A stretch of 64,000 bases of DNA from Fimbriimonadaceae bacterium. GTDB taxonomy: Bacteria > Armatimonadota > Fimbriimonadia > Fimbriimonadales > Fimbriimonadaceae. The stretch spans positions 1 to 64,000 of the forward strand of contig JBGSIJ010000003.1 of NCBI GenBank assembly GCA_041742595.1, read 5' to 3'. Made by a program: the position numbers. This document shows positions 12,001 through 18,000 of the stretch, in pieces (the first letter of the stretch is position 1; the number at the start of each line of letters is the position of its first letter).

Positions 12001-15000
12001 CCTTCCAGCGGGGAAGGTCTCGCTCCGCCCATCCGTAGGCTCGTTCGGCTGAGTCGCGGTAGATCTTGGCGGCTTTGGGCTCCGTGCTTAGAAGGACGTA
12101 GGCGGCGCGGGCGGCGGTGGCCGCGTACAGGTAGCTGCTCCATGGGTCCGGGGCGTAGGCCATCCAGGGAAGTGAGTTGGTCCAACTGGTCTCGCCAGCG
12201 AGGGGGTGTTCGGGCATCTCGATCCCGCCTCGGATGGATCCGTCGGGGCCTTGCATCCGGCGATAGTGGTCGATGTTCCAGAGAGCTTCGTCCACGAGGT
12301 CGGCGCGCGCGTTGCCAGACTCCGGGATGTTCCAGGCCTGCCGCCTGGACCAAGCGGGGAACAGTTCGCAGAGCTCAAGGAGAAGGCGCGTGGCGTCCAG
12401 GTGCTGGATTCTTGTATCCCAGTCTCCGGCGTCGTGGTAGCCACCCCATGCCTTGGCGACCTTCAGAGAGGTCTTGCCGCGGACGAGGGCGTCGAAGTTG
12501 TTCTTGTCGCCCGAGAGGTTCAAGCCGTTGCCTGATTCAAGCAGGGTCGTGGTCGAGGCAACCACGTCGTCGGGTTTTCCAGGCCGAACGAAGGGCGTAT
12601 AGGGTGGTCCTAGCGGCACGTTGGCGCGCTGATGGTAGAAGCCCTTCATGCCGACTTTGAACGCACGTTCCCAGACGGAGGGAGCGATCTCGAAGGGGAA
12701 GGAGCAGCCGATCCCAGCCACGTAGACTCGGTACTTGCCGGGCGTTATCAGACTGGAGAAATCCACCTCGTAGACGTCCGCTTTGGCGTAGTTCTTGGCG
12801 TACGCGTCCTCGTCGGTCTGGGATTTGGCCTTGAGCAGGGTCGCCCTGCCGCGGGTAACGGTTGCACCGTCCTTGTCCCGAAGTACCTCGAACGCCGGGG
12901 CGGCGGGGTAGTCGAGGGGGCCAAGGGTGCCCATCCACGTCGAGACGAAGGCGGACTTGGCCGGGTCGTCCGGCCTGAAGCCGATCTGACTCACCATCAC
13001 CGACTCGCTCCGTTGTTTGCGGGGGTTGAACGTCCAGTCTGCGCGGAGGTTGCCGGGAAGCGAAATCGAATAGGTAGCGCCTGCCTTCAGGGGGCGCCCG
13101 AGGCGGAGATAGAGGCGATGCCGCATGGCGGGGGCAAAGTCGAACGGAGCGATCCGGGCAAGGTCGGTCGGCTTGGACTTCCAACCCACGCCCACGACCC
13201 GGATCTCGCCGGCCCCGTCCCGAACAAGAAAGTCGGAGTTGTCGGCTTTCGCGGGAGGCCAGGGGGCGCCCTCGAGCTTCTCGAACCGCCAGAGGCGGTC
13301 TCGCTTCGGGCCGACGGCGGCCCCGATCGGCTTGTTGGCCCGCAGGACCCAAGGCTGGAGTTCGTAGACGGAGATCTTGTCGCCCGATTCCGGGGAGTAA
13401 GGGGATGCGGCCCGCCCGACGACCCGTCCAGTTTGAACTTGCACCTCCAAGACATCGGGGCTGGCAGCCCCAACGAAGATGATGCTTGGATTGCCGGTCG
13501 AGGCTAGGACGAGGAGTATGCCGAGAGTCCCCATGGCCCAGTCTAGCCAGTGATGTCGGTCAAGCTGCGTTCGACCGTCGAGATAGGTCGTAAGTCCCTC
13601 CCTGCAGGCAATCCGTCACTGCGCCCTTCCAGGTTAAGCCTGCCCTTCTGCCGCAAAATCAACGAAAAACCCCTTGCCTTCTGGCCCGACCTCATGTAAC
13701 ATGCTCAAACAGTTGAGCACGTTGCTCAAACAGTTGAGCAGATCGATGGTAACGAAGCCAGAGAAGCAAAACGAGAGAGCCACGTTGCAAATGGTTGCAA
13801 CGTTGGCGCAGGTGTCGACCTCCACGGTCTCGCTCGTTCTTGCCGGCAAAGCAAGCCATCGCCGCATCTCGGAAGACACCCGTGCCCGGGTCAAGAAGAT
13901 CGCGGACGACCTCAACTACGCGCCCAATCTCTTGACCCGCTCTCTCCGACGTGGGCGCACCAACATCCTCTCGTTCTTCAGTACCTTCCGCCACCGCGAG
14001 ACGGACGACTTGTACATGGACAAGATGTCCTCCGCGATCGAAACGGCGGGCGGAGACTGCGGTTACGACATCCTCGTCCACTGCAACTTCAACCGCAGCC
14101 CTCGAGAGATCTACCAGTTCCTGAACGGCGGTATGGCGGATGGGCTTCTTCTTTTTGCGCCGCAGCACGACGACCCCTTGCTGCCATTGCTGAGGAATTC
14201 GAATCTGCCGGTTGTGATCGTCAACGGGAGAGATCCGGAGGGCGAGTACCCCTCGGTTGCGGACGATGCGACCCTAGGAATGCGGCTGGTGGCCGACCAG
14301 CTGTTAGCGAACGGTCACCGCCGGATCGCGATCTTCAGCGGACGCCAGCCAGAGGCGCGCGACGCCTTCGCCCGCGCCCAAGCTTTGCAGGCTTTTCTTC
14401 GCGAGGCGGGATCGCCGATCCCTCCCGAGTGGGTTCTTGAATGTGGGTCCGACGAAGCCACGGAGATTTTGGCGAAGTTGATGAGCTCTTCCGAGCCGCC
14501 GACCGCTATCTTCTGCTGGCATGACCGGCTCGCTTACGCGGTGCTGGCGGCTTGCGACCAGTTGGGCATCGAGGTGCCCGAACAGCTTTCCATCATCGGA
14601 TACGATGGCCTCCATTGGCCTTCCGCCACAAGGCACGTAGCCTCCTCCATTCAGGTGGACTTCAACGCGCTTGCGCTAAAAGCAGTCCGCCTCCTCGACC
14701 TGTACATCGCCGGCTACGCAGGGGCTCCGCTCCAGGAAACGTTGCCGGTGGCTTTTGTACCCGGGACCTCGCTAGGACCCGCAAACCAACTGCAACGGAG
14801 CAAAACATGAATCGCACTCATCGCGCCAATCGAGGGTTCACCCTCATCGAGCTGCTCGTCGTGATCGCCATCATCGCGATCCTCGCCGCCATCCTGTTCC
14901 CCGTCTTCGCCCAGGCGAAGATGGCGGCCAAGAAGACGTCCGACCTCTCCAACGTGAAGCAGTTGTCGCTTGCCGTGCTGATGTACGGCGGAGACTACGA

Positions 15001-18000
15001 CGACACGTACCCATTCTGCTGGGGCTGGGACAGCGAGTGGACTCCTTGGCACCGAGCGGTTAACCCTTATGCCAAGAGCCTCGCTATCTGGAAGTCGCCG
15101 GTTGACAACTGGGGTCGAGGCACTGAAGATGCCGGCGGCGTCTGCATCCAGGGCTCCCAGACTCGCGGCGTGACGTACAGCATGAACTACACTTGGCCGG
15201 CGTTTGCGAACGACAGCGGCCAGTGGTGGGGGGGCAGCGCAGAGCAGAACCTGATGTCGCCAACCGCGGATAACGGCGGCGCCACTCAGACGGCTGTGCC
15301 TTCGCCAGCCTCGACGATCCTCATCGCCCCTCGACCCAACTGGTACCACCAGTGGTGCCAGGGCTGGGCGACGGAAGTGTTCTTCAACTACGGCGAGTTC
15401 AACATGGTTGGCGGCGGCGCCAAGATGTTCAGCGACGGAACCAACTACGGGTTCTGCGATGGACACGCCAAGTACATGAAGAAGGAAGCCACGTTGGCGG
15501 CACAGGGTTCGCAGCAGGGAACGCCGATGCCATCGTACTGGCCGAACGACCCGGTCAACTGGCCGTGGCCGGTTGGCATGTGGGACAAGCGCCAGTAGGT
15601 TAGCGCCACGCCTGAGCCCTGGGGAACGGATTCCCCAGGGCAAACCTCTAGGAGTAACCCAATGAACGAACGATTCAAGACTCCCGCCATCGTCGTGGTC
15701 GTTGTGGCGATCGTGGTTGCCGTCGTCTACTACGGTTTCAACACGATCGGCAACGCCGGAAACCTCGACCAAGGGCAAGTCAAGTACACCCCAGGCAAAC
15801 CTCCATGGGAAGAAACCGACCCGAGCAAGAAGGGTCCGGGCGGCGCCCCTGGTGGCGGCGGACCGGGTGTGCCCAGCGGCGGCCCCACGCAGGCGCCGGG
15901 CGGCGCTCCGGTTGGCCCTCCCACGATCTCCAACGACGGCAAGTAGCCATGTCCATCCTTCGCCCCCGTAGCACCGGTCAACCCGCCACCGCGGGGCGAA
16001 AGGATCTGGGTTAGGCGACATGCTGGGCCGCGTCATGATCGGATTGGGTCTCGCCGCCGCCGGCATGACCGCCCTCATCGGCAGCGAGAGGGCGGCCAGC
16101 CGGCAAGTTGGCTCCAAGCGCCTGGTCGTCACCTACTGGGAGAAGTGGACCGGCGACGAAATGCAGGCGATGAAGCGCGTGGTAGACGCGTTCAACGCCT
16201 CGCAAGACCAGATCGAGGTCAAGTACCTCAGCATTTCCGGGATCGCGGAGAAGACGCTTTTGGCCACCTCAGGCGGTAACCCGCCAGATGTGGCCGGCCT
16301 CTGGAGCGACCAGATCGTCCAGTTCTCCGATGCCGGGGCCTTGACCGACCTCACCGAGCTGGCCCGCGAGGCGGGCCTAGGCGCCAGCCAGTACATCCCC
16401 GCGTATTGGAACGAAATCCTCTACAAAGACCGAATCTACGCTTTCCCGAGCTCGCCCGGGACCTCCGCGTTGCATGTGAACCGGGCGCTCATGCCACCGG
16501 AGTACGACAGCCCCGACGAGTTCCCCAAGACCATGGCCGAGTTCGAGAAGATGGTCGAGAAGGTCAGCAAGCGCAATCCCGACGGGTCCCTGAAGACGGC
16601 GGCTTTCCTGCCTCGGGACGGGTTTGGCGGCGGGTCTTGGCCGTATCTGTTCGGCGGCTCCTACATGAAGGGGGACCAGATCGATGTGAACGGTGCGGAC
16701 GATCTGAAAGCCTGGAAGTGGGTGCACTCGTTCGCAGAACGGTTCGGAGTGAGGGAAACGCAATCCTTCCGTAGCGGGTTCGGCAACTACTCGTCCCCGC
16801 AGAACCCGTTCCTCTCCGGCAAGCTCGCCACCTACATGGATGGGCCTTGGTTCAGCAACTTCATCCGACTCTACAACCCAAAGATCGACTGGTTTGCGGT
16901 TTCGTTCCCGGCCCCGGACGGACGGCCCGACCTTGCGGGCTACACGGTTTTGAATCTGAACACCCTCATGATCCCCCGGGGGGCGAAGCACCCGAAGGAG
17001 GCGTTCGAGTTCGTGAAATTCGTGCAGCGGCAGAACGTGATGGAAGGCTTGTGCCGGGATCAACGGTGCAACTCCCCGCTTGCCAAGGTCTCTGAGGAGT
17101 TCTTCCAAACGCACCCGAACAAAGCGATCCGGCTGTTCGACAAGCTCGCCCGAAGCCCGAACGCGGTGGGACCCGTGAAGGTGGGCATTTGGGGCCAGAT
17201 CGGACGCGAAGTCGGCAACGCGGTCGACGTAATGGACCTCGGGGAGAAGTCGCCGCAAGCCGCCCTAGACGCAGCCCAGGAGCGCCTCCAAGCAGACTGG
17301 GTCAACTACCAGCATCAGGTGTTGGGCCGATGAGATCGGGGCGCGACCAGAGGGTTGGCGTGCTCTTTGCGCTCCCCTGGATCCTCGGCTTCTGCATTTT
17401 CCTGGCCTACCCGCTGATCTCCTCGCTGTACTACAGCTTCACCAGCTTCTCGGTCCTGCGTCCCGCGCGGTGGATCGGGGTGGAGAACTATCGCGAGCTC
17501 CTCCGAGACGAGGTCTTCAAGCTCGCGCTTAAGAACACCGTGCTGTTCACGGCTGCCTCGGTTCCGCTGGCGACGGTCGCAGCGATCCTCCTGGCGATGC
17601 TTCTCAACACCAAGACCAAGGGGATGGCCCTCTACCGGACCCTGTTCTATATCCCGTCGCTGGTCCCGATGGTGGCGATGGGGGTGCTCTGGCTCTGGGT
17701 TTTCAACGGCCAGTACGGGTTGCTAAACGAGGGGCTGAAGGGTCTTGGGGTCCCCACTCCAGCGTGGCTAAGCGACCCGGCTTGGTCCAAGTGGACGCTG
17801 GTCATCATCTCGATCTGGGGCACCGGCAACGCCATGGTGATCTACTTGGCGGGACTGCAAGACGTGCCGCAATCCTTGTACGAGGCGGCGGACCTCGATG
17901 GCGCGAGGATCTGGGGCAAGACCCGGCACGTGACGCTGCCGATGATCTCGCCGGTCATCTTGTTCAACGTCGTAATGGGGATCATCGGCACCCTGCAAAC

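What a model noticed while it worked through the whole genome (the two positions that open the first line are those of the whole stretch)
13701..15946. LacI - solo H-X9-DG pilin - small lipoprotein cassette marks sugar loci
The genome has 47 stand-alone prepilin-type proteins (FTLIELL...LFPVF, H-X9-DG-type C-terminus) outside pilus operons. They form a recurrent cassette LacI regulator - pilin - 50-110-aa lipoprotein or membrane-anchored peptide at the head of glycosidase and sugar-ABC clusters, a likely Armatimonadota counterpart of the SusC/D marker of polysaccharide loci.
Evidence so far: 11 of 15 LacI genes lie within two genes of a solo pilin; 15 of 47 pilins have a sugar-type regulator nearby versus 269 of 3429 genes; 19 of 47 are followed by an unannotated protein of 110 aa or less, most with a lipobox. 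LacI/Peripla_BP next to N_methyl in 165 of 227 order genomes against 1431 of 49249 overall. Example g00020-g00022 precedes an ABC transporter and GH30/GH2 genes.
(Added by a program. Inside this text positions count along the whole contig: contig position 1 is position 1 of the stretch shown here. "Call 12" and the like, gene names such as g00115 and contig names such as C1 are that model's own, and its searches are not shown. The text may have been shortened before it was handed on; [...] marks where a part breaks off. The agent that wrote the report below was given it as the finding of a first reader that could run no searches.)

Follow-up and report, generated by a model that had tools for sequence, protein, structure and literature searches.

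The report
Galactan-matched pilin and partner operon
A sugar-repressor operon in an Armatimonadota bacterium with no detectable TonB-type outer-membrane importers encodes a pilin-like protein and a tiny membrane-anchored partner that stay together across the phylum and, within its order, track a galactan-cutting enzyme, so the pilin is likely a sugar-specific catching tip of a pilus, which gives a large uncharacterised protein family a specific ligand to test.

Summary
The cassette is real. 11 of 15 LacI genes lie within two genes of one of 49 stand-alone pilins. Orthologous pilin heads are 62-77% identical across species, paralogous heads about 32%. The window's pilin keeps its own LacI (18 of 21 loci) and partner (20 of 21; a YxPGxPPW core even in five families outside the order), and co-occurs with a β-1,6-galactanase-like GH30 (19 of 24 carriers among 228 order genomes; weaker phylum-wide). 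The genome has BamA, 3 secretins and 4 PilT but no TonB receptor or SusD match. Best reading (0.45): substrate-specific receptor pilins on a shared retractile filament; binding, assembly and import are all inferred. Corrections: the window's partner has no lipobox, its motif is F-X9-DG, only 21 of 49 pilins sit in sugar contexts, and only 4 of 14 sugar-binding-protein genes have a pilin nearby, so this is no general PUL marker. The family and a 'fishing-rod' idea are in print for planctomycetes; I found no paper on the cassette. The scan noted the pattern before on other DNA (nine notes seen).

The parts
13674..13702 (+). likely sigma-70-type promoter of the operon (TTGCCT, 17 nt, TAACAT)
   Evidence: read; 8 of 12 consensus matches, below the scanner's threshold, so one search lists none; orthologues L005 and L013 have TACAAT at the same place against the operator
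13702..13719 (+). operator copy 1, TGCTCAA-ACAG-TTGAGCA
   Evidence: only two exact copies in the genome; within 2 mismatches in 11 of 21 orthologous loci, as the perfect palindrome TGCTCAAACGTTTGAGCA in several
13723..13740 (+). operator copy 2, identical, 21 nt period
   Evidence: same 21-nt tandem in L005, L008, L013
13746..14810 (+). LacI/GalR repressor, about 354 aa (likely start 13746, not 13701); its stop overlaps the pilin start (ATGA)
   Evidence: PF00356 E 2e-13, PF13377 E 2e-24; sequence
14807..15598 (+). 263-aa prepilin-type protein: class III signal G|FTLIE, LFPVF, Trp-rich head, F-X9-DGH
   Evidence: PF07963, TIGR02532; AF2 pLDDT 93, helix 13-63; top 20 VIA rows all pilins or pseudopilins, best Z 5.0
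15616..15641 (+). perfect 11-bp stem, 4-nt loop, no U tract, between pilin and partner; possibly an mRNA-stabilising hairpin
   Evidence: read; function not tested
15662..15946 (+). 94-aa partner: basic N-terminus, one TM helix, conserved core GNLDQGQVKYTPGKPPW, Gly/Pro tail
   Evidence: no Pfam or NCBIfam hit; core invariant in 18 aligned orthologues, one of them (L018) with a lipobox in place of the TM helix
16020..19068 (+). sugar ABC importer: SBP_bac_1 and two permeases (no ATPase gene here)
   Evidence: kept in 7 of 21 orthologous loci
19065..20909 (+). GH30 + ricin-B lectin domain with signal peptide; closest solved structure endo-β-1,6-galactanase
   Evidence: PF14587, PF14200; PDB 24td E 3e-66, next GH30 E 8e-23
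20906..29014 (+). DUF5107-TPR protein, GH2 (nearest model BT4151 exo-β-1,4-galactosidase, 677 bits, under its cut-off of 1500), GDSL esterase, second GH30
11252..13534 (-). divergent GH9-like gene sharing the promoter region
   Evidence: PF00759 E 2e-13, CelD_N; no homologue in the 21 orthologous loci

Best explanation
The window holds a likely self-repressed LacI operon whose pilin is likely a receptor subunit for β-1,6-galactan (arabinogalactan side chains): once induced, it would be cleaved by the prepilin peptidase, added to a shared type IV filament, bind the glycan through its Trp-rich head and, on PilT-driven retraction through a secretin, would bring it to the cell surface or periplasm, where the GH30 enzymes and the ABC importer would take over. 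The small anchored protein is predicted to bind its own pilin head through the YxPGxPPW core outside the inner membrane and to hold, load or release it. The ~49 paralogues would be a repertoire of such receptors for different nutrients, playing the part of SusC/D pairs in a diderm without TonB receptors. Shown: gene order, operators, cognate conservation of LacI-pilin-partner, co-occurrence with GH30, machinery genes, absence of TonB/SusD matches. Predicted: pilin fold. Inferred: repression, cleavage, filament assembly, glycan binding, partner binding, import.
For: Operon with tandem operator on the promoter, kept before the pilin even in 3 loci that lack the adjacent lacI. Heads: 62-77% identity among orthologues against a median best hit of 32% among 41 paralogous heads with a hit; in 7 full loci the head (69-72%) is about as conserved as the SBP (63-76%) and more than the LacI sensor (52-69%) or GH30 (60-65% in 4 loci). 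GH30 lies in 15 of 21 loci, and it changes (30-33%, 57-63% or the second GH30 type) while the head does not. Among 228 order genomes 24 carry the pilin, 24 the GH30, 19 both; within one genus 17 both, 2, 2, 25 neither; in 4 genomes the two lie on different contigs. A second pilin (C37) keeps its own LacI and operator in 2 of 3 relatives, its lipoprotein core in 1 and a GH53-like ORF in 1. Eight head Trp are >=90% conserved; sugar-context heads have 4.1% Trp against 2.6% (16 vs 28, p 0.002). BamA, 3 secretins, GspD, GspG, PilD, 4 PilT-family and 4 PilB/GspE-like ATPases present; no TonB receptor, SusD or OprB match in a 98% complete genome; 146 of 228 order genomes have no TonB receptor match and none has over 7. 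One family member ends the T2SS-like operon. Precedent for pilins that bind glycans: 10.1101/614800 and PMC12691611 (abstracts).
Against: No binding, expression or assembly data. The fold match is weak (Z 5.0) and no lectin fold was found. Outside the family the GH30 link is weak: 9 of 26 pilin carriers against 55 of 327 others (p 0.03; the pilin search scored only 6 candidates a genome), and GH30 lies in 5 of 18 loci. Trp+Tyr content does not differ (p 0.12). 28 of 49 paralogues are not in sugar contexts and 23 of 45 have no small partner downstream. A paralogue beside an alkaline phosphatase has no such neighbour within 1.5 kb in 19 of 19 relatives. 82 of 228 order genomes do have TonB receptors. 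Related genomes are not independent. The operon also encodes signal-peptide-bearing glycosidases, so small products might enter by an unrecognised porin.
Confidence: 0.45

Rival explanations
1. Adhesion only: the pilin binds the glycan and tethers or moves the cell on it, so that secreted enzymes work nearby; nothing is hauled through the secretin.
For: Same genomic evidence for specificity; C. bescii PilA is xylan-induced and mediates adhesion (10.1101/614800, abstract); Akkermansiaceae MUL2 is read as an attachment pilus (PMC13174399, first half of text).
Against: Adhesion does not need one subunit per sugar regulon, nor explain pilins by peptidase, phytase or B12-related genes or the scarcity of TonB receptors.
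Confidence: 0.2
2. Membrane-bound periplasmic receptor: the pilin helix only anchors the head in the inner membrane, where with its partner it binds oligosaccharide and hands it to the ABC importer or signals its presence; no filament forms.
For: The partner is an inner-membrane anchor or lipoprotein; the triple often stands alone; the head is large (about 200 aa).
Against: The first 40 residues with G|F and E5 are nearly invariant over 49 paralogues, as expected for filament assembly; the ABC has its own SBP and is absent from 14 of 21 loci (some cut short); no signalling domain is present.
Confidence: 0.2
3. Secretion adaptor: each pilin is a pseudopilus tip that recognises its neighbouring hydrolase and pushes it out through the T2SS.
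For: GspD and GspG over cut-off; one family member ends that operon; many paralogues lie beside secreted hydrolases.
Against: The head stays 69-77% identical while the adjacent GH30 is swapped for 30%-identical forms, so it follows the chemistry, not a protein; many loci have no enzyme.
Confidence: 0.1
4. Passenger: the pilin has an unrelated surface role and only rides in sugar operons.
For: 28 of 49 paralogues are outside sugar contexts; LacI and head distances correlate only modestly (rho 0.35, 30 loci).
Against: LacI and partner orthologues stay with this pilin in six families; the operator stays when lacI is absent; pilin and GH30 co-occur when unlinked.
Confidence: 0.05

Closest known systems
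DUF1559 / SBP_bac_10 (PF07596) prepilin-type paralogues with the H-X9-DG motif (TIGR04294), described as an expanded family in Planctomycetales (PMC8567305, passages)
   Same: [quoted passage not shown]
   Different: The window protein hits neither model; here each paralogue has its own LacI, operator and short partner, and one tracks a named enzyme family; the passages read give no ligand or regulator.
Planctomycete 'fishing-rod' pili (PMC5394234, passages; PMC12078418, section 5)
   Same: Proposed uptake of polysaccharide by pili in diderms; dextran bound 12-nm fibres and entered the periplasm.
   Different: Those passages name no gene; different phylum; here a gene, a regulator and a predicted sugar are specified.
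SusC/SusD pairs of Bacteroidota PULs (recalled)
   Same: Substrate-specific paralogue pairs under a local regulator, beside matching glycosidases.
   Different: No β-barrel, no SusD; pilin fold; present at a minority of sugar-ABC loci.
Glycan-binding type IV pilins: C. bescii PilA (10.1101/614800), M. xanthus PilA W146 (PMC12691611), Akkermansiaceae MUL2 (PMC13174399); DNA-receptor minor pilin ComP (PDB 5hz7, VIA rank 4; its role recalled)
   Same: Pilin head as ligand receptor; aromatic residues; induction by the glycan; ComP is a precedent for receptor-plus-retraction uptake.
   Different: Each is one pilin of a pilus locus; here ~49 stand-alone subunits with separate regulators and a tethered partner.

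Membership tests
Type IV pilin / pseudopilin | class III signal: basic leader, G|F, E5, hydrophobic helix | tested here: met
   [10 protein letters not shown]07963 E 3e-10, TIGR02532; helix 13-63
Type IV pilin / pseudopilin | pilin α/β head fold | tested here: inconclusive
   top 20 VIA rows are pilins or pseudopilins but best Z 5.0, rmsd 3.3, 118 aligned; Foldseek best E 0.1
Type IV pilin / pseudopilin | processing peptidase and assembly machinery in the genome | tested here: met
   PilD, PilB/GspE, PilT, secretins
Type IV pilin / pseudopilin | cleavage and incorporation into a filament | not testable with these tools
   needs proteomics or imaging
DUF1559 / SBP_bac_10, H-X9-DG | PF07596 match | tested here: inconclusive
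   no match for the window protein; 22 of 93 homologues and 11 places in the genome match; Atlas look-alike cluster 12% PF07596
DUF1559 / SBP_bac_10, H-X9-DG | H nine residues before DG (TIGR04294) | tested here: not met
   F208-X9-DGH; no TIGR04294 hit; 7 places in the genome match
DUF1559 / SBP_bac_10, H-X9-DG | many scattered paralogues with a constant N-terminus | tested here: met
   49 LFPV[FL] proteins, 36 with DG[HS][AVT]
SusC/SusD PUL | TonB-dependent β-barrel and SusD lipoprotein | tested here: not met
   0 PF00593, 0 PF07980 in a 98% complete genome
SusC/SusD PUL | substrate-specific paralogues tied to a regulator and matching CAZymes (works-like test) | tested here: met
   for this pilin; partly for a second; weak phylum-wide
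LacI/GalR autoregulated operon | HTH + sensor domain and a palindromic operator on the promoter | tested here: met
LacI/GalR autoregulated operon | repressor binds the operator and is released by a sugar | not testable with these tools
   needs EMSA
GH30 endo-β-1,6-galactanase | closest solved homologue; activity | tested here: inconclusive
   24td E 3e-66, far above other GH30; activity untested

The most novel reading that the evidence does not exclude
Armatimonadota (and probably the PVC phyla with the same family) import polymers across the outer membrane with a TonB-free system: a library of exchangeable receptor pilins, each induced by its own sensor and handled by its own tethered peptide, mounted on one retractile filament that pulls cargo through a secretin. 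The window encodes the β-1,6-galactan module.
Probability: 0.3. Interest if true: 0.92.

Novelty: new variant of a known kind. Interest (0 to 1): 0.72.

Why it matters
How planctomycetes and similar glycan degraders get polymers across the outer membrane is an open question in print (PMC5394234, PMC12078418), and the prepilin-type family that expands in them has no known function. This locus supplies a testable set: one head, one predicted ligand (β-1,6-galactan), one conserved partner peptide, one repressor with its operator. If binding and uptake hold, type IV filaments would gain a nutrient-import role beside DNA uptake, LacI neighbours would predict ligands for many uncharacterised heads, and the heads would be a new source of glycan-binding proteins.

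Tried and rejected
Head-only model (pLDDT 90.5): Foldseek gave no match at E<=0.001; the wide VIA search could not be run, so no claim is made on a new fold. Sequence search of PDB with the pilin profile matched only the N-terminal helix. Public runs: no RNA holder listed. Promoter scanner found nothing. 'Pilin marks every sugar-ABC locus': rejected, 4 of 14 against 14% background. 'Small partner is a lipoprotein': not for this example. 'Pilin beside alkaline phosphatase is a conserved phosphate module': phosphatase absent within 1.5 kb in 19 of 19 relatives; its upstream motif found no regulon in the genome. Trp+Tyr test not significant. The window's operator was not found at <=3 mismatches in 18 loci outside the order. 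Antigenic/phage-driven variation of the head was rejected because orthologous heads are as conserved as the SBP. Two papers likely to bear on novelty are not held (Mahajan 2020 MBE; the Chthonomonas genome paper). My gene caller is home-made and misses some short genes.
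Full report
1. What is in the window. ORFs and family scans give one + strand run: LacI, a 263-aa prepilin-type protein (14807-15598), a 94-aa protein (15662-15946), SBP_bac_1, two permeases, GH30 with a ricin-B domain, DUF5107-TPR, GH2, GDSL and a second GH30. A GH9-like gene diverges upstream. The first GH30 is closest to a solved endo-β-1,6-galactanase (E 3e-66). Named relatives are Fimbriimonadaceae/Fimbriimonadales, Armatimonadota. It abuts a weak promoter match (8 of 12; the scanner lists none). The likely lacI start is 13746, and its stop overlaps the pilin start.

2. Genome-wide check. The genome (3.62 Mb, 98% complete) has 15 LacI genes and 49 LFPV[FL] pilins. 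11 of 15 LacI lie within two genes of one (expected 6%, p 4e-11); two more share a sugar locus with one at 5.7 and 7.6 kb; the operator of a fourteenth recurs before a distant pilin. LacI-type palindromes occur at 9 of 15 lacI promoters against 31 of 1254 operon-first genes; the test misses odd-centred ones such as the window's own. Three pilins without an immediately adjacent lacI promoter have such a site directly upstream. So operators are common, but stand before lacI. A short anchored ORF follows 22 of 45 evaluable pilins against 31 of 590 control genes. The reverse link is weaker. From Pfam on 168 neighbours, 21 of 49 pilins are in a sugar context; others lie by peptidases, alkaline phosphatase, phytase, B12-related or housekeeping genes. 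4 of 14 SBP_bac_1 genes have a pilin within 6 kb against 14% of all genes.

3. The three genes are a cognate set. Of 21 loci with an orthologous head (62-77% identity, one split), 18 have the orthologous LacI directly upstream, 20 the orthologous partner, 15 a GH30 and 7 the ABC (several loci are cut short, three are near-duplicates). The operator is kept in 11 of 21, and in the three loci without adjacent lacI it stands before the pilin. Paralogous heads in one genome share a median 32% at best (41 of 44 with a hit). The partner has an invariant core G.LD.GQ..YTPG.PPW; in L018 it follows a lipobox instead of a TM helix, so 'lipoprotein' and 'membrane peptide' are two anchors for one core that lies outside the inner membrane (inference). 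In a 401-genome phylum sample, 26 genomes of five families outside the order carry the orthologue. I fetched 18 of them: 13 have the LacI orthologue beside it, 16 the YxPGxPPW core and one a variant, 5 a GH30; one has a galactokinase and one an α-galactosidase-family gene nearby; most other neighbours are unrelated. The triple is thus older and steadier than its link to ABC or enzymes. A second pilin (C37) has 3 relatives among 228 genomes; two keep its LacI and its different operator, one its lipoprotein core, one a GH53-like ORF.

4. Link to a substrate. Among 228 order genomes, 24 carry this pilin and 24 the GH30 (E<=1e-40); 19 carry both. Two of the five pilin-only genomes have the second GH30 type beside the pilin (L012, L019). 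Within one genus of 46: 17 both, 2, 2, 25 neither. In four genomes the two genes are on different contigs. The adjacent GH30 changes from 57-63% to 30-33% identity or to the second type while the head stays near 70%, which points to the chemistry, not the enzyme. Kin are not independent, and outside the family the link is weak: 9 of 26 against 55 of 327. In 7 complete loci the head is about as conserved as the SBP. Sugar-context heads are richer in Trp (4.1 vs 2.6%, 16 vs 28, five truncated left out, p 0.002), not in Trp+Tyr (p 0.12).

5. Structure and machinery. AF2 gives pLDDT 93, a helix at 13-63 and a head of short strands and ordered loops. The top 20 VIA rows are pilins or pseudopilins, best Z 5.0, which is weak; Foldseek finds nothing significant for the whole protein or the head. 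The genome has BamA, three secretins, GspD and GspG over cut-off, PilD, four PilT-family and four PilB/GspE-like ATPases, and one family member ends the T2SS-like operon. It has no TonB receptor, SusD or OprB match. In the order 146 of 228 genomes have no TonB receptor match and the rest 1-7.

6. Mechanism. Most likely: galactan fragments lift LacI repression; the pilin is processed and joins a shared retractile filament; its head binds β-1,6-galactan; retraction brings the glycan to the surface or periplasm for GH30 and the ABC; the partner holds or unloads its own head (0.45). Rivals: adhesion only (0.2), a membrane-bound periplasmic receptor without filament (0.2), a secretion adaptor (0.1), a passenger (0.05). 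All steps after gene order and conservation are inferred.

7. What is known. The protein resembles the N_methyl + SBP_bac_10 family expanded in Planctomycetales, which is expressed and often flanked by signal-peptide genes (PMC8567305, passages). It fails the literal H-X9-DG test and misses PF07596, though 22 of 93 homologues hit it; I call it a divergent relative, not a member by model. Dextran-binding fibres and periplasmic uptake are shown in planctomycetes (PMC5394234, passages), and a 'fishing rod' idea is in a review (PMC12078418, section 5 and passages), without genes in what I read. Glycan-binding pilins are known (10.1101/614800 and PMC12691611, abstracts; PMC13174399, first half). 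PMC11071339 (passages) has nothing on it. Nine full-text searches (other hits seen as listings only) showed no paper on a LacI-pilin-partner cassette or on these proteins in Armatimonadota. Mahajan 2020 (MBE) and the Chthonomonas genome paper are not held, Klimek 2024 was not read, and no supplement was seen; any could describe part of this. SusC/D and ComP roles are recalled. Earlier scan notes describe the same layout in other genomes; I had logged my reading before seeing them and do not count them as support.

8. Verdict. Observation confirmed with corrections; interpretation partly supported. New variant of a known kind (type IV filament subunits as ligand receptors, organised like PUL importers); interest 0.72.

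Noticed in passing
window 54801-55849 (-): Two adjacent N_methyl minor-pilin-like genes (192 and 155 aa) outside any pilus operon, not of the LFPVF type.
   Followed up: partly
window 51348-54346 (+): A second sugar ABC importer (SBP_bac_1, two permease-like genes) with no pilin within 36 kb: a counter-example to the marker idea.
   Followed up: partly
L023 (G000:C7:30329-31454): A pilin with one in-frame stop near codon 108, then an intact rest and a lipoprotein, in a GH116/GH39/ABC locus: pseudogene or assembly error. L021 has a split orthologue of the window pilin.
   Followed up: partly
L031 (G000:C30:113093 upstream) and L111-L129: A non-sugar pilin found in 73 of 228 order genomes has a 17-bp upstream motif (about ATCATCAAATTTGACAA) in 12 of 20 loci, with no other strong site in the genome; regulator unknown.
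   Followed up: partly
L032 (G000:C31:14077-15882): A pilin flanked on both sides by near-identical small lipoproteins, divergent from a LacI.
   Followed up: no
L022 (C3:145067-147208), L048 (C53:8620-11026): Tandem pilin-lipoprotein duplications (heads 81% and 38% identical); the C53 pair lies beside peptidase genes.
   Followed up: no
L041 (C44), L044 (C50), L099: Cassette order varies: lipoprotein-lacI-pilin, lacI-lipoprotein-pilin, pilin-partner-lacI.
   Followed up: no
L070 (G000:C50:84337-87705): Three tandem PilT/PilU-family ATPase genes apart from any pilus operon.
   Followed up: partly
L042 (G000:C45:108417-111930): Two Trp_halogenase-like flavoprotein genes between a pilin-lipoprotein pair and an SBP-permease/LacI sugar locus.
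   Followed up: no
G000 C7, C45, C58, C64: Five of 14 SBP_bac_1 matches lie in frames of about 800 aa, likely binding protein-permease fusions.
   Followed up: no
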